DNA of 53,087 bases, counting the filler, from Bipalium vagum (taxonomy: Eukaryota), in the NCBI GenBank assembly GCA_037834085.1. It is 3 parts of 3 records of this genome, joined end to end, with 100 filler letters (N's around TTAATTAATTAA, not from the genome) between each part and the next. Parts side by side here need not be neighbours in the genome. Positions count along the whole stretch, not along the records: positions 1 to 16,712 come from JBBMKC010091510.1; 2 more parts are not named here. The stretch is one strand, 5' to 3'. The notes under the pieces were generated by a model. It saw only the letters and a program-made list of their open reading frames with translations. It made no database searches and was not told where the DNA came from. Position numbers and translations under genes: made by a program. Shown here in pieces: positions 5,101-17,410 of the stretch (positions are counted from its first letter, which is position 1; each line of letters opens with the position of its first letter).

Positions 5101-8100
5101 TCTTTTTCTGTCCATTGGTGGAAATGATGTTACAGCAATATGAAATAATGAGAAAAATAGTAATATCTTTTTTGTTCAACAAATATGAAAGAAGTGGTAG
5201 CTCGATGAGTCATGTAAGCAATCAATTTTGAGTCAAGTTTTGATTTGTTTCTGGGTTAGGTTTTTATATTTAAATTAATCAATAAAATTCGTTACAATCT
5301 GTTAAATTTTCGAATTCTTCATTACAATCAATGTTTTTGAAAATAAACTATTTGGTTGGCAACAAATATAAGTGCACAATTCTTATTTGCTTAGTATTTA
5401 TTGATTTTTACATTCATAAATGCAGCTAAAACCACATGAATATGATCAGTAAGTTAAATTTTGTTTGTGGTATTTGCAGCATCAGGACCCCAGATTTGGA
5501 CCTCACACAAATCCATTATTGGTTTTTGAGCGCGCTTAAGGCAAGCGCTTCTCATTACCAAAAACGAAAAATATACTTGAAATGGAAAAATGAATAAATG
5601 GAGAATGTTCCCGTTTTATTATTACGGTATTATTGAAGAGGTTTAAACAGAAAATATTATCCTTTCCACGAAGAATTGAGATAATGTTAAAAAAACTGAT
5701 TTTGAGAATATAATAGAGAAAAATACTTTTTTTCAATTTATGCTCTTTGTCATCAATAATATATTTTTTGTCCATTTTATTCTTCATTTACTTCTTTACT
5801 CGGTCTTGTTACAAATGGTATGTTATTTGATATGAGTTATTTAAATATTCACCATACCTAAGAGCTATTTACAATATGACAATGATTGATAAAATCAATA
5901 TGTCGCATGAACATCAACGGGGTTGATGCCGAGTTATATTATCAATAATCGTGTCGAGTGGCAGGTGCAATGGACAACAAACGATCAGAATTGAAACATA
6001 AAATTTTTTGTTTGATAATGGTATACCACGCATTCCAAACATTATTCGTGAAAAGTTTTGCACCAATTTTATTCTTCTGATCGGGCACCAAAAGATTATC
6101 ATTATATCTGGGACTTGAAGAACGTCTTGAATTTCGAAACATTCGCAAATGATAACAATTTGTAAATTTTAGTTGGAAACGTGTTTCGCATTAGACCGAT
6201 GACCTTTTATAACTAGGGCATCAGTGATCGACTTCATCGTTAGAAGTATGTGCTTCCGCATAATGGTGATTACATTAATACTTGATATATACTTCTCTCC
6301 TCCAATGCTTCACATTGTACAATGTTATAACTAAAGATTTTTTATTATTTTATTGGGAATAGTCCATTATGAATTAGTCCAACCAGGACAAAAAATAAAC
6401 CCAGTTATCTACTGTCAACAGTTGACAAGAGTACATCAGGTAATTGCAAGAAAGTGTCCCGAATTAATCAATAGGAAAGGCGTTGTGTTTTATCATGACA
6501 ACACCAGACCACATGTATCTTTCATGACGCAGCAAAAATTGAGGGATTTTGATTGGGAAATTTTCTTGCATCCTCCATATAGTCCTGATTTAGCACCGTC
6601 AGACTATCATCTTTTTCACTCATTGCAGGACTCCCTTAAAGGTGTCAAATTAAATTCAAAAGAGGATTGGGAAAACACTAATCTCTTTTTTCCCAATAAA
6701 TCAAAAAAGTTTTACAGTGACGTAATTGGCGATCAAAATGGTAATTATATAATTTAATAAAATTTTCAATTCGACTTTATTTTCTAACTTTTTTACTTAA
6801 CCAAAATCGCCGGAAACTTTTTAGACTATCCAATACTTTGTTTCGAACCAATTTTAAAACCGGGACATTAATCGGTACTTAACTAAGTCACATATTTTAT
6901 TTAATTTGACAAATACAGAGTCTGTTATCAATACATACATGTCAATTGTTTCTTATTACAGGTCTGGAAATTACCTCTTGTCTGTGTGATCCAACAATAT
7001 GCGCTGAAAATATCGAATTTTTGATTTGTCTTCCTAAATCGTTTTATACTTCATTGATTGCAACCCTTATAGTTCATGATTTACACATACTTGTTCTCGC
7101 CTTAGAAGTAATTTATGGACTATCGGAAGTGGATGCCATAATATGTCGCAAGTAGAATATCATGTTTTCTGAAAAAATCGATCATTAATATACAAAATTT
7201 AGACTAATCGACTGTTCATCAGAAACTTTGATCACTTTGTATACGTTACTTAATTTGGAAGCTCAAGTTCTGGGTACACAGAGTTTAATACGAATAAGAG
7301 TTATGCAGGGTCCAAGTACAGTTAATAGTTTTCCCAATGCCAGCAACCGATTCGGCTCCTCTACAATCAACCAAAGTCAGTCAGCCACCTCCTTGATGCC
7401 ACCTCCACCTGTTCCCCTTCACAAAGTTGCTATTTCAGCAATGTCAGTTGTAACTGGGACAAATGTAAAAATCACGAATACAACGGATTCAATGAGTGCT
7501 TTAAAATCAATTTCGAATCAAGTAATTCTCTTATTGTTTCTAATCAAATTATACAAAGGACACCTAATGCAATATTTTTCTGTTAATCAATAACCTTTTG
7601 TTAACTTCTTTATTTATCCAGAGAAACTGTTCACTCATAACAAAAAGTAATCCAGTCCTTCAACTTTCATCCAGCCCTGTTTCAGTGAGTACCACATCAG
7701 AAATGGCATCCTTAGTTTCGACAATAAGTCAATTGACTGAATCGGTTCTCATCAATTCCTGTCCAAATAAAACATTTTTGCAACCTCAAATCAATCTCAA
7801 TGTCCAGTACTCAATTCTTCCTCAGAAATTCATAACAACGAGTATTCCCAATTTCGTATCATCCACAAGTTTGGCACCAGCGAAACCTGTGGTGTCGAAT
7901 TATGCTTCGGTTATCAAAACATCATGCATATCAACACCTTTGCCGACCTTTTCAATGGATTCAACCAACAAGGATGAAACTGTAGATAGAAAGAACAATA
8001 ATTTCGACATGATCACATCGTCGACAGTCAGTCAAAACACCAGCAAATTATCAAGTACATCTGTAGTGGCCAGTTGTCCTTTGAATAAAAGCAACAATAT

Positions 8101-11100
8101 AAAGCATGTTGATTTATCAATCAAAGAGAACGAGAGCGCTCTTTCTGTGGTCAACAAACAGGATTTCGTTAAAAGCTGGCTCTTGAACAACTATATCGAA
8201 TTTCCTCAGAGCACTGTTCCGTTATTTGTCATTTACAAGCAATTACAAATCGCAGTCCAGAGCCACTTTAAGGACTCTGAAATGGTGACAGCGGAGGAAT
8301 TCCATAAATTGGTTCGGTAAATATTTAATATTTTTTCACAAAACCACTTTTTCCGTCACGTAATAGTTATGATACCAATGGAAACCGTTGTTAAATGATT
8401 TTGTTTTTGATGGATGGATTGTTTTTTAAGATTGCTGTTTCCCCAAGTTCAACTGATACAACTATTCACGCCCAGAGGAACGGTGGAGATCCACTACTAC
8501 AACTTGAAATCGAATCCAAAGAGCACCACGCTGGAATCACTGCTGGAAACACCGAAACTGAAACCAGTTCTTAACAATTCTCAAGAGAATAACATCTGTA
8601 AGATAAAAAACAATGTGCCTCATATCAATAATGCTCAATCCAATCACCTTTCCGATCCTGTTAGCAATGATCAGGTAAAACTATTTTGATGGAATTTATG
8701 TTTTTCTCTGTTACAGACGGTTTGTGTGTAACGTTTGAATTCCTTGGAATTTGTTCTTTGAAGAGAAAAAAATCTCAATTGAATATCATGTGCAGAACAT
8801 TAGAACAAGATTCCTTTTCATCTCTTAATTAAATAAACAGATAATTTAGTAAGTGCTGAGAGCGAAGCAAATGAGCAGTTCTAATTTTCTTTAATAGTGA
8901 TAAAGGAGTCCGTCGAAAGAATATCAGAGGCACTGGTTTTATTTTGTAAATGTAATTAAATTTTCAAAGCAAAGATTTTAATTATTGTTCGTGACAAAGG
9001 ATTTTACGTGAGATTTCATTTATCTTCACCCTGACCTATTTGTGAGGGTGGTGGATATTGGAAATCAATAATTCTTGACTTCTGCTCAGATGAATGTGGA
9101 AAATTTTGTGATAGTTGACAAGGAACTCCTAAATATTTTTGATAGATCGATCATTCCAAAGATCTTAATTTACTTATTTATTTATTTGTGGGTTTTAAAA
9201 TTTTTAAAGGATTATAAGGAGTACATATTACACCAGATAATAATTAAGATTCAATTAAAATTCAATAAAAAATCTGGGATCATGTTTTTTTTCCGAAATG
9301 ACTATCAAGTCTCTTTATTGACCGGTCTCAAATTTTCTCATCTTGATAATAAAGAAATCAATATTAAATTAATAAACAGCATAGTGATGGGTGTACCATC
9401 CGATGCAATTATGTTTTTAAGAGAAAAAAGTCTGTTGTTACTATCAGATAATTTATAATAATATTAAAATTAAAAATAATATTAATGATTTTACGAATTA
9501 TAAAAGATACTTTTCTACTAGAAGAAAATCCTTTTGAGAAATTCAAAATACCTCTAAAGAAATGTGTCCATTTATTACAATTTTGGGCTCTTGGCAGATC
9601 ACTAAGTCAGTTACTGAAGACACGGGCGTTTCAAAATCTGTCGTTATTAATTTCTATGCAGAAATGAGAAAAAAATGTAAGATTTTTTTCTTTGGAAAAT
9701 CCAATAAAAATGGGCGACCCCATATTCGTGCTCCTGATCATGAGTTATGGATTGTTGGTATCGTTGACGACTCCAAGAATGCAAACACATTTTTGAAGTT
9801 AGTAGGAGACAAGAAATTCCCACTTTACTACCCATTATAAGGGGCATCGTTAAGCGTGAATCCGTTATAATGAGTGCTTAATGGAGAGCATATTCCCAAC
9901 TGTCTAAAGATTAAAATTGTTTATCGAAGTATTAACCACAAGATGAGTTTTGCTGACAGGGAGACTAGTGCTCACAGGCAAAGATTTGAATCGATTTGGA
10001 GAAAACTGAAGATTAAGATCGTCTAAATAAAGACCGTCTATGGTGATCTCTTGGAAATATATAACCAAATGAATGAATATGGCACCAAAATATTCAATCA
10101 AGAAACTGCGAATCAATTTTTTATTTAATAAATTTGTAAATAGAAAATTATTTGTTTTTGTCATTTTTTGTGCTTCGTATCAAGTCTATTTTTTGACTGA
10201 GTCGATCAAAAAAACATGATCCAAAATCGTTTATTTTAAATAATATGTAATTCTCAGCAAATAATACATCGTTTTAATTAAATCAATAAATTAATAAAAT
10301 AAAGATTTGAAAATTCGATAATGTGATAATCACATTTATTTAATAATTCGATTTGTGATGTATTAATAAATAAATTATGGATTTCAAACATCTTGATTTT
10401 AAAATGATCATATTTGATAAGAAAACAAATATTGATACATAAAAGTTATCCATTTGTATGGATTTTAAGTACTATTTGTTTAAATATTGATTTAAAAATT
10501 GCGAAATTGAATCTAGAAAAATAAGTTCGTTATCTTCCAACTGCAAATTCTGGTCGAACAGGTTAATTCTCAGGTCGCCTAGGGGTTCCCAAACTCGCTG
10601 GGTCTCTTTGTAAAAATCCGACCGCATAACTGTGAATAAATCCGGCTGCGTAATCAATGGTTACTTCTGAATTTCGACTGATTATTCTGGTTCTGAGATT
10701 GATCTGTGGACTATTACGCTGGTTCTGCGGTTGATCTGTGGACTATTACGCTGGTTCTGCGGTTGATCTGTGGACTATTACGCTGGTCCTGCGGTGTATC
10801 TTTGGACTATTACTCTACTATTAATGGGAATAGCCATCTCCTTTTATAGGCGTAGAGATTGGTCTACGATCACCAATCCCTACGCTCGGAGATGGCTATT
10901 TTCCCCTAATAGCCAAGATAGTCTCCCTCCTGTCGAGGCTAATGGATTCCTGTCAGGAAATCCATTAGCCTGATTCCATGAAAAATTCCAACGGCGGGAT
11001 TTTGTCATTATAAAAATGACACAAAAAAAATTTTTTTTTCCTTAATTTTAAAATATTCTTATTAATATTATTTAAAAATTATTATTATTATTAAAAATTT

Positions 11101-14100
11101 TTTATTATTATTAATCAGAAATTATTATTATTATTAAATTTCCAAAATAATATAATTAATTTTTATTATTACTACTAATTATTATTCTTTTCAATATTAG
11201 TATAATAACTATTACCATTATTATTATCCTCATTATTATTGCTCCAAAACCCAACATTATTACTGAATTTTTCGATACTTACAAAGAGACATAAAGAACA
11301 TTGTGTATGTTATTATGACATACTACTTGCACTTTAATGAATAGGAAGTACAATCTTTTTTTAATAGAAAAATTTGAAGAGACAATCGAATGAAATTGTA
11401 AATGGTTTTCCTTCCGAGCCATCAGAATCCAACCATGTGATTTCAAAGAAACCAAGACTTGCAGATGATGGAGACCAATACAGTTCTCAGAAATCAATGA
11501 CGCCTATTGGGGAATTCAAAGAAAATCATCTCAAGAATTCAAAAGCCAATGGAATAGTAACGCTTCCTTCTATTCAGAATGATCTGAAAAATCATCTTCA
11601 ATCAGATCCTTCAGTTAAAAAAAGGTACTGTTATTTTTATATTAAACTAATGACATCGGATAGAAATAAAAATTATTTTGCTTCCAGTAACATTGAGAGA
11701 GACTTAATTTTAATAAAATAATTTTATTGATTATTGACAATCTTCATTGAGAGGGGGTTGTTAATTGAAAAGATATAAAGAGGAACTAAAAGTAATTATT
11801 TCTAAAATAATCCTGAATTAATTCTGATCAGGTTGCCTATGAGGGCGATGACGATGTCCTTGTTATAGGTCGTAATAGTTTTCAATCTTGAATTATCCTT
11901 TGGTATTATACTCTCGGAAAGAAGGATCTTAAGATGGATAATCATTAAAAAATGTTAAAAATATAATTCCGATTTAAAATTCATAATAATAACTATTCAT
12001 TCGGATTTTCTTTCTAAATCTTCGTTCCCCTTGTAAAATCTTTGTTTTCTCATTAGCGGGTTTGTATTTAAAATTGTTATTAATTATTGTTTTGATCAAG
12101 TTTTCACCGCATATCGATATTTCCATTATATTTTTTGTTGCTAAAAGTCTCTGGAACCAACATTCTCAATTTTTCTGATATTGATCTTTGGTAACCATAT
12201 ATTTTAATACAGTAAGATGCCTCTCAACTGACTTTCCTTTTGAAAGATACGGAAAAATTAAAAGGTACCAAAAATTAAACTTATTCACCTGAGATTAAAA
12301 TTTTTTCGAGAAAAGTATTTTTCCATTACATTTCACTCATTTTTACAATATCGGATACATTTGATTTAAAGCGCGCGAAAAATATTATATAAACAAATAT
12401 ATGAATATTAAAAAAAATCATTTTAAAAATAGAAATATCGTTTATTAAATCGTCATTTCTAACTTTTACCGCGAATATATCAGTTAGTTGCACTTTTCGT
12501 ATTTTAATAATGTAAATGGTATAGAATTGTGTAGTCTACTTTATCCAAAATAAGGGATGGTGACAACCATTTAAATTAATATATTTTCTATATGATTGAT
12601 TATGGACGGAGAACTTTTTTTCAATATAATGACGCTACGTTATAAAATACTTTTCACATTATTTTGAATTATGTTTCGGAATTAATGGGGTTTTCTTTAT
12701 CAATTAGCCATATCTCAAATGGGTTCATTAACGAAGATATGAAACCTGTGGAAATGAAAATAACACCGTCATCAGTTTCTCAAAATGGTTCTGAAAGTCT
12801 TGGTCATATTCCAAATGGAGATGCTGGAACTGTAATAGTTCCAAATCACAAAATTCATGTTGATATTTTGAACTCTAACGCAACACAAGTTATGATTAAA
12901 AATGAGAGCACCAATTATGTGGTAGATGATGCAAAGAATTCTTTATCAGAAGATATATCAACTCCAGACTCAACTCTGCAAAAGAAAACATATAGAAAGA
13001 CGAATTCCAATCAGTTAGGTCGTACAAGATCGAGGTTTCGGAATTGTCGCTCAGGTAACAGCGACAAACAGCGTAACTATTCCAATCATCGACCCCACAA
13101 CCTCTCTCATTTATATATATGCGAATGGGACAATTGCCTGCAAAGTTTTGATAAACCACAAAAGGTTTATGGGCATGTATATACAAATCATTTTATGACG
13201 CTTCGAACTGAAGTTCAGGTGAGATTTGACAATGTAAACAAATATATTTTTTGTGCTTAATTCAATTTTATTAGATAAAACATTGATTTTTCATAATCAC
13301 TTTTTCTTTTTAATCAATTTTTTTTGTTCTCATATATATTGGATTGTCGGTTAATTTTGTTCGGTTTTTAAGATTCTCATTTATTCTTCTCAAAAATTTT
13401 TTTTTGAACAAAAACAACAGTCAAAGTAATCAATAATATATTGATCATTATTTTTATGACTTTACTTATGATGCTCGTCAATGCCACGGCGAAAGACAGA
13501 AATCTGCAGTTGAGGGCGAGAGTAACCGAGCGAAAATCTTAGAGCGTTGATTTTTGTTTTCGCTCAAAAGATGTGAAATTCAATTACCGAATATTTTGAC
13601 CTTCTCCACCAATTTGACTCAACAGCAATTTGGTTCAATTGCTCTTCACCAAACGTTGAATATTGGTATGGTCCTAAACACCAAAATCCAAAAACACCGT
13701 TTTAGAAACTCGAAAACAAAATTGAGATGTTCTTTCCGATATAATATGAACTCAATACACACTGAAAATATGACATGCAGCTTTGGTGCCTTAAATTTTT
13801 GTTTGTAGAAAAGCAGAATGTATAGAAAGTGATCATTCTGTTCAATTTGACATTTCATTTTGAATGGCTGTTAATTACAAATTAAAACAAATGAAATTAT
13901 TAAATAGATACGCATATAGAATTAAAGATTCTCTATTGATTTCTTGTTAATCAATTGGGAAAATTATAATTTATATTTGAGCAATTTTTAATGTTAAAGA
14001 ACTGCTCGAAATTAACCGACAACCAAATAATTAAATTGTGCAAAAGAAATGGCCAGTTTTGACACGTATTTATTATATTTTTTATTAATTGAAATAAGAA

Positions 14101-17039: not shown

Positions 17040-17410
17040 AAGACTTGCACTCAAGACATTGTATACATAATGATTGCACAAAACAATATTCAGAAAGTAA
17101 TTTTTGAAAAGTTTCAGGTCTAGATACAGTGCATAATAATTTAAGAAGTCTAAATTACGACTTGAAAACTCCAAAGTAATTTTTGAAAAGTTTCAGGTCT
17201 AGATACAGTGCATAATAATTTAAGAAGTCTAAATTACGACTTGAAAACTCCGAAGCTGATCCCAGAGAAAAGAAATTATTCCGAAACAATTAAACTTTGA
17301 AAACAAAAGGCATTACTGTTTGATACGTTGTGTGACTAATTTTCCGACTCTAAGATTTATTTGTAGATGAAGTTGGGTTCAACTTGTCCATTAGCGTTAC
17401 ACGACTTTTT
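17040..17410 (+). mobile_element. IS630/Tc1-superfamily transposase fragment, same family as 29640-30352
   Basis: Shares tacagtgcataataatttaagaa..ttgaaaa..aagctgatcccagaga with 29827-29891; ends near FVDEVGFN (first catalytic D). Confidence 0.7.
17094..17251. repeat. Perfect 79-bp tandem duplication
   Basis: 17094-17172 is identical to 17173-17251. Confidence 0.93.

What the first reader, a model, noticed from the sequence alone, without database searches (positions are those of the whole stretch)
10530..11021. Unexplained structured module in an ARID2 intron: 32-bp tandem repeat followed by three consecutive hairpins
Seen: a block clearly GC-richer than its flanks with no recognisable transposase. 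It contains an imperfect 24-bp duplication (about 10614-10660), about 4 copies of a 32-bp unit (10687-10812, not a multiple of 3) and a roughly 120-nt bulged stem-loop (10805-10923; 13-bp perfect and 13/14 stems, 8-nt loop). The 5' foot of that stem (gactat) is contributed by the last repeat unit. A 16-bp hairpin (10936-10971) follows, which could be enclosed by cctgtcg/cggcggg with G-U pairs on the + strand, and then a 7-bp hairpin (11003-11021). Inference: a structured non-coding RNA or hairpin small-RNA precursor, or the terminus/origin of an unrecognised mobile or virus-like element (iterated repeats beside terminal hairpins). I cannot assign a family.
Basis: partly seen in the sequence, partly recalled or inferred. 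Interest (0 to 1): 0.7.

Follow-up and report, generated by a model that had tools for sequence, protein, structure and literature searches.

The report
Broken end-repeat of envelope-carrying retrotransposon
The hairpin-and-repeat block is the broken leftover end (long terminal repeat) of a very common jumping gene that carries a virus-like envelope gene; its hairpins surround what is likely the element's promoter, so it is an ordinary remnant of a known kind of element and probably not a new RNA gene.

Summary
The repeats and hairpins are real (z -9 to -11), but the block is no stand-alone module. Window 10567-11256 (minus strand) is the first ~690 bp of a ~940-bp LTR; the last ~340 bp are lost. 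The own-genome search gave 2,360 candidates (40 scored). Whole copies end TG..CA; 24 of 40 solo copies have an exact 4-bp target duplication (control 2.2%). Other copies run into a tRNA-Trp primer site and an internal region ordered gag - unknown ORF - env (PF24664) - protease - RT - RNase H - integrase - exonuclease-like ORF. One contig holds env and protease in one 902-codon frame. This GAG-ENV-POL order is published for flatworm, nematode and bryozoan Ty3/gypsy errantiviruses (PMC13524379). The big stem holds a TATAAAAG box in its bulge. The 32-bp array is subfamily-specific (7 of 98 copies), and its pairing with the stem foot arises from an 18-nt deletion in this copy. Covariation is weak, Rfam blank. 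Side lead: the ISG20/REXO4-like 3' ORF.

The parts
10567..11256 (-). LTR remnant (first ~690 of ~940 bp; predicted U3 and part of R; the last ~340 bp with the predicted poly(A) signal, U5 and the CA end are missing)
   Evidence: BLAST of whole LTR copies against the window; family search
11250..11256 (-). 5' terminus of the LTR (TG start)
   Evidence: shared end of whole copies
11257..11260 (.). candidate 4-bp target duplication (the other copy was lost with the far end, so it cannot be tested here)
   Evidence: inferred from 24 of 40 solo copies
11022..11249 (-). AT-rich simple-sequence part of the LTR (distal U3, predicted)
   Evidence: shared with family copies
11003..11021 (.). 7-bp hairpin, present exactly in 24 of 101 copies; not a family constant
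10936..10971 (.). 13+3-bp palindrome (H2), family-wide, no two-sided changes
10905..10925 (-). 18-nt deletion at 10914/10915 that removed one arm of a family hairpin (H3) and freed the other arm to pair with the last repeat unit
10829..10900 (-). bulged stem (H4+H5): two inverted CCAAT pentamers (10858-10862, 10873-10877) in the inner stem, TATAAAAG (10841-10848) in the bulge; predicted core promoter
   Evidence: sequence; folds; TATA motif in 39 of 48 LTR rows; promoter role inferred
10687..10813 (-). 32-bp x 4 tandem array starting about 28 nt downstream of the TATA box; subfamily-specific
   Evidence: 7 of 98 copies
10606..10653 (-). imperfect 24-bp duplication, in 15 of 98 copies
10567..10605 (-). 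part of a GC-rich block that continues in whole copies; the remnant breaks off inside it
9480..10250 (+). neighbouring, separate dispersed repeat with broken transposase-like frames (Merlin/ISXO2-like motifs, recalled; no Pfam hit)
   Evidence: 998 candidates, 40 scored; translations; Pfam blank

Best explanation
Window 10567-11256 is a one-side-truncated copy of the long terminal repeat of a high-copy Ty3/gypsy retrotransposon that carries an envelope gene between gag and pol; it lies antisense in an ARID2 intron, was likely left by recombination between the two LTRs of an inserted element and then shortened by a deletion, and its hairpins are palindromes around a predicted TATA/CCAAT promoter. 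Shown: dispersed family, TG..CA ends, 4-bp target duplications, a primer site complementary to host tRNA-Trp, and the gene order in single contigs. Inferred: RNA polymerase II would start about 25-30 nt past the TATA box, where the variable repeat array begins, so the array would be the 5' end (R) of the transcript and the hairpins would be U3; the arrays likely grow by slippage or template jumps of the reverse transcriptase; this copy has lost its predicted poly(A) signal and is probably inert.
For: 2,360 first-look candidates, all 40 scored contigs match. Copies share both ends and have unrelated flanks. 40 solo candidates: 24 exact 4-bp duplications, 13 with 3 of 4, 2 with 2, 1 with 0; shuffled pairs 2.2% exact; 5-bp duplications 0 of 40; length 799-1125 bp; 4 copies attached to internal sequence were set aside. 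13 of 30 loci from the LTR-end pattern continue into an 18-nt primer site and a shared leader; the site complements the host tRNA-Trp gene plus CCA at 17 of 18 and a partial variant copy at all 15 genomic positions. Pfam: zf-CCHC 2e-12, PF24664 7e-18, protease, RVT_1 4e-27, RNase H, rve. Env lies upstream of protease on the same strand in 13 of the 39 other contigs scored; one stop-free frame of 902 codons holds PF24664 (1e-69) and protease. L277 shows env-PR-RT-RH-IN-extra ORF-LTR, L283 shows LTR-gag, L093 has LTR pieces on both sides of its internal region. Six public proteins have env ahead of a protease domain in one chain, four of them through to integrase.
Against: This copy's own target duplication cannot be tested. 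The polypurine tract is short and imperfect in the two junctions seen. No single contig examined holds a whole element. Start site and poly(A) site rest on motifs only (its 48 rows include some loci twice). The loci are the best-scoring hits, not a random sample. A few subfamily-level stem changes keep pairing on the sense strand, which a pure DNA-promoter reading does not need.
Confidence: 0.95

Rival explanations
1. Same LTR origin, but the stem that encloses the TATA box is a selected RNA structure at the 3' end of the element's genomic RNA (the 3' LTR copy of U3), used in strand transfer, packaging or 3'-end formation. This adds to the best explanation and does not replace it.
For: In 104 copies the common variants in H4/H5 mostly keep pairing on the sense strand: C-G 59 / U-G 21 / U-A 14; U-G 43 / C-G 36 / U-A 18; G-U 68 / G-C 31; G-U cells outnumber A-C cells 96:45 and 110:27. 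The sense strand folds better than the antisense in 47 of 50 copies. One subfamily has an inserted sequence in the H2 loop that is itself a hairpin.
Against: On 22 of these copies: covariation score reached by 23 of 500 shuffles, double-change cells by 31, double-change pairs by 87, all inside what relatedness alone gives; only H4 has two-sided changes. These are about three or four events, one passes through an A-C mismatch held by 14 copies, and H2 carries common mismatches (A-C 16, 12; U-U 32).
Confidence: 0.3
2. A host non-coding RNA or microRNA-like precursor has been co-opted at this intron.
For: Long near-perfect stems, z -9 to -11; an intronic position would put the + strand in the ARID2 pre-mRNA (inference).
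Against: Every well-kept family copy folds as well, so folding says nothing about this locus. The copy is truncated and deleted; 92% identity to its nearest copy in the core. Best Rfam score inside the block 16 bits against gathering scores of 49-52.
Confidence: 0.03
3. A non-autonomous DNA element (MITE, Helitron/Helentron-type) or a virus-like origin with iterons.
For: Tandem repeats with nearby hairpins and a neighbouring DNA-transposon-like repeat resemble such elements (recalled).
Against: TG..CA ends, 4-bp duplications of varied sequence, primer site and gag/pol linkage; the neighbour is a separate repeat that ends some 300 bp away.
Confidence: 0.01

Closest known systems
GAG-ENV-POL Ty3/gypsy errantiviruses with HSV/gB-type env of Platyhelminthes, Nematoda and Bryozoa (Chary and Hayashi 2026, PMC13524379), especially Smed_errantivirus_1 of Schmidtea mediterranea
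   Same: Gene order gag-env-pol; class III fusion-type env (PF24664, the chuvirus/gB-like type); multi-copy. The Smed_errantivirus_1 env row seen in supplementary file 3 shares motifs and cysteine spacing with this family's env (compared by eye, not aligned).
   Different: The paper's table gives tRNA type 'none' and no LTR coordinates for its six Schmidtea elements; here LTR, 4-bp duplication and a tRNA-Trp site are defined. The word 'exonuclease' does not occur in its main text; this family has an extra ISG20/REXO4-like 3' ORF.
Nematode endogenous retroviruses of Sacco et al. 2022 (J Gen Virol, doi 10.1099/jgv.0.001739)
   Same: Flipped env/pol order, as cited in PMC13524379. A continuous gag-env-pro-pol frame and extra ORFs are recalled, not read.
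   Different: Paper not held; relationship not tested.
Bdelloid rotifer LTR retrotransposons Juno/Vesta with a DEDDy exonuclease ORF3 (Rodriguez et al. 2017, PMC5408684)
   Same: An exonuclease-family ORF downstream of pol in a Ty3/gypsy element.
   Different: There it is RNase D-like DEDDy with intact catalytic residues and stands in place of env (passages); here it is ISG20/REXO4-like, comes in addition to env, and seems to lack catalytic residues.
Unnamed public polyproteins P0001-P0006 (ENA)
   Same: Single chains with env ahead of pol domains; env 41-44%, RT 57-60%, integrase 63% identical.
   Different: No match to the exonuclease-like ORF in these chains; their DNA surroundings were not seen.

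Membership tests
LTR of an LTR retrotransposon | Dispersed family with shared TG..CA ends | tested here: met
   the window copy keeps only the TG end
LTR of an LTR retrotransposon | 4-6 bp target-site duplication | tested here: met
   24 of 40 exact 4-bp, control 2.2%, (family level; not testable for the window copy)
LTR of an LTR retrotransposon | Primer-binding site next to the 5' LTR, complementary to a host tRNA 3' end | tested here: met
   13 of 30 loci; tRNA-Trp 17 of 18
LTR of an LTR retrotransposon | Polypurine tract before the 3' LTR | tested here: inconclusive
   same junction in two contigs (L093, L100), short and imperfect purine run; the polypyrimidine pattern search gave 1 hit
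LTR of an LTR retrotransposon | Same repeat on both sides of the internal region | tested here: met
   L093 has the LTR end before gag and the LTR start after the last ORF; both are partial
LTR of an LTR retrotransposon | Promoter and poly(A) activity | not testable with these tools
   motifs only: TATA 39 of 48 rows, AATAAA 160-179 nt from the end in 34 hits
Ty3/gypsy | pol order PR-RT-RH-IN with gypsy-type RT | tested here: met
   (order shared with BEL/Pao; Pfam RVT_1, RT_RNaseH_2 and rve hits; no RT tree was built)
GAG-ENV-POL HSV/gB-type errantivirus | gB/chuvirus-type env between gag and pol | tested here: met
GAG-ENV-POL HSV/gB-type errantivirus | RT groups with the published flatworm clade; env cysteine configuration | not tested
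GAG-ENV-POL HSV/gB-type errantivirus | Intact, near-identical multi-copy elements | tested here: inconclusive
   all internal stretches examined are broken or cut by contig ends; the assembly has 272,664 contigs
Structured ncRNA / pre-miRNA | Match to a known RNA family | tested here: not met
Structured ncRNA / pre-miRNA | Covariation above control | tested here: inconclusive
   23, 31 and 87 of 500 shuffles reach the observed values
Structured ncRNA / pre-miRNA | Processed transcript | not testable with these tools
   needs RNA data for this organism
DEDD exonuclease (3' accessory ORF) | Sequence likeness to ISG20/REXO4 | tested here: met
   PDB 1wlj E 1.4e-5, profile 2.2e-7, Atlas RNase_T clusters 0.92-0.95; no Pfam hit
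DEDD exonuclease (3' accessory ORF) | Four acidic catalytic residues | tested here: inconclusive
   the ExoII Asp aligns to Ala; the ExoI Glu looks replaced by eye (motif recalled); model unusable, pLDDT 33

The most novel reading that the evidence does not exclude
This flatworm-type gag-env-pol errantivirus family carries, besides env, a 3' gene for a catalytically dead ISG20/REXO4-like exonuclease fold with no homologue found outside this genome, which could act as an RNA-binding counter-silencing or RNA-export factor that recognises the selected stem around the TATA box in the element's own 3' RNA end.
Probability: 0.12. Interest if true: 0.6.

Novelty: new member of a known kind. Interest (0 to 1): 0.25.

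Why it matters
As given, the finding is ordinary: a decayed LTR in an intron. Its use is to tie an LTR, a 4-bp target duplication and a tRNA-Trp primer site to a flatworm-type GAG-ENV-POL errantivirus family, for which the published table lists no LTR or primer for six Schmidtea elements, and to flag an extra exonuclease-like gene. It also shows how strong folding scores in AT-rich animal genomes can come from palindromic LTR promoters.

Tried and rejected
Rfam: five matches with E up to 10 in 9500-12000, all far below gathering scores. RNA data: no RNA holder listed. Laying the one listed run (contigs, kind unknown) showed a 451-nt contig over 10146-10596 without differences, with only 30 letters past the left junction, one short of the tool's bridging rule; summed depth is no copy number. 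Polypyrimidine pattern for the polypurine tract: 1 hit, unrelated to the internal region. The primer-site 18-mer has 227 genome hits, but only 4 of the 30 fetched follow this family's LTR end; other LTR families share it. AlphaFold on the exonuclease-like domain failed (pLDDT 33), so no fold search was run. No outside homologue for that ORF among 5,647 candidates of 367-1169 aa; longer and shorter proteins were not searched. The H3 count (103 of 104) is unreliable because the loose pattern also matched the window copy; one search is used instead. The first TSD table listed alternative ends per locus and was replaced by one rule-chosen pair per locus. Pfam found nothing for the unknown ORF between gag and env beyond weak PIN-like hits below cut-off, nor for the neighbouring transposase-like frames. 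Paper searches for hairpin-plus-repeat gypsy LTRs (0 papers with all six terms), for planarian LTR work (nothing on point in the 12 listed of 140) and for ISG20/REXO4 in retrotransposons (1 paper, whose passages report no such case) found no prior description; most subscription journals are not held. Helitron/MITE, SINE and hammerhead readings were considered from memory and dropped once ends, duplications and primer site were seen.

Full report
Observation. The described features are in the sequence. TRF finds a 32-bp unit x4.0 at 10687-10813; a 24-bp pair at 10606-10653 is 75% identical. 10800-11025 folds at z -9.2 (+) and -11.1 (-), with 0 of 200 shuffles as good. Rfam has nothing near a cut-off. 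Exons on both sides match ARID2, gene on the + strand.

It is part of a large dispersed family. A search of the own genome with 10500-11050 gave 2,360 first-look candidates; all 40 scored contigs match, nearly all starting at window 10567. Read on the minus strand, whole copies begin TG and end CA. Choosing one end pair per locus by motif fit, 40 solo copies measure 799-1125 bp; 24 have an exact 4-bp flanking duplication, 13 have 3 of 4, 3 have fewer; pairing flanks of different copies gives 2.2% exact; none has a 5-bp duplication; 4 copies joined to internal sequence were set aside. The window copy spans 11256 to 10567 and lacks the last ~340 bp; no other piece of the family was found in the window.

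It is an LTR. A pattern for the LTR end next to CCA gave 39 hits, 16 with the same junction; 13 of the 30 fetched continue into an 18-nt site and a shared leader. The site complements the 3' end of a host tRNA-Trp gene plus CCA at 17 of 18 positions and a partial variant copy fully. Downstream lie gag with zinc knuckles, an ORF of no known family, an envelope gene of Pfam PF24664, and protease, RT, RNase H and integrase. Env precedes protease on the same strand in 13 of the 39 other contigs scored, and contig C1054 holds env ectodomain, membrane segment, tail, protease and the approach to RT in one stop-free frame of 902 codons. Single contigs show LTR-gag (L283), env-PR-RT-RH-IN-extra ORF-LTR (L277) and LTR pieces on both sides of an internally deleted region (L093). 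All internal stretches examined are broken or cut off. The polypurine tract is weak.

Anatomy of the block. On the element's strand the order is AT-rich sequence, small hairpins, H2 (10936-10971), H3, then the bulged stem H4/H5. H5 consists of two inverted CCAAT-containing arms; the bulge is TATAAAAG (10841-10848), found in 39 of 48 LTR rows, and AATAAA falls 160-179 nt from the LTR end in 34 hits (some loci count twice), in the part this copy has lost. About 28 nt past the TATA box family conservation stops and tandem arrays begin, with periods from 9 to 33 by subfamily; the 32-bp unit occurs in 7 of 98 copies, the 24-bp pair in 15 of 98, the exact 7-bp hairpin in 24 of 101. That the TATA/CCAAT unit is the promoter and the array the start of R is inferred from standard LTR layout (own knowledge).

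Is the fold selected? Partly possible. In 104 copies the common H4/H5 variants keep pairing on the sense strand, and that strand folds better in 47 of 50 copies. But on 22 of these copies the covariation measures are reached by 23, 31 and 87 of 500 shuffles, the events are few, one goes through a mismatch, and H2 tolerates frequent mismatches. I give selected RNA structure 0.3.

Comparison. PMC13524379 (abstract, section 5 part 1, section 8, passages, rows of supplements 1 and 3) reports GAG-ENV-POL Ty3/gypsy elements with HSV/gB-type env in Nematoda, Bryozoa and Platyhelminthes, and cites Sacco et al. 2022, which I could not read. Its Smed_errantivirus_1 env resembles this env by eye; no alignment or tree was made. 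Six public proteins carry env ahead of pol domains in one chain. Earlier scan notes call the host a flatworm; I did not test this beyond the env likeness. Exonuclease ORFs in LTR elements are known from bdelloid rotifers (PMC5408684, passages), there of DEDDy type and in place of env.

Side lead. The ORF between integrase and the 3' LTR resembles ISG20/REXO4, has 152 matches in this genome at about 43-90% identity (150 of 1,046 candidates scored), appears to lack catalytic residues, and had no outside homologue in one search. The searches found no description of this type beside env.

Verdict. A truncated LTR of a new family of a known kind of element; confidence 0.95; interest 0.25.

Noticed in passing
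L093:3717-5003, L277:5671-6110, L282:1574-3577: 3' accessory ORF of the parent element with an ISG20/REXO4-like domain, apparently lacking catalytic residues, followed by an acidic/basic low-complexity tail; a second family in the genome has it at about 50-57% identity.
   Followed up: partly
L100:532-2015, L094:691-1777: About 450-500 codons of unknown ORF between gag and env, no Pfam family above cut-off.
   Followed up: partly
window 9480-10250: Second dispersed repeat in the same intron (998 candidates) with broken transposase-like frames; Merlin/ISXO2-like motifs recalled, no Pfam hit.
   Followed up: partly
window 6335-6754: Mariner-type transposase fragment (Transposase_1, E 9e-6) in another ARID2 intron.
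   Followed up: no
L103-L132: The same tRNA-Trp primer site has 227 exact genome hits and follows at least four other LTR-like ends, so several families use it; the common site differs from the intact tRNA-Trp gene found by one base.
   Followed up: no
window 10096-10131 and 10363-10398: 36-nt inverted pair, 72% complementary, between the two repeats; possibly another small element or chance in AT-rich DNA.
   Followed up: no
window 17094-17255: 79-bp tandem duplication, 98% identical, in another stretch of the pack.
   Followed up: no
L162:2702-2919 and L193: Diverged LTR subfamily with a 24-bp x ~10 array after the TATA box and two two-sided changes in H4; in L162 an LTR piece abuts the middle of env.
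   Followed up: partly
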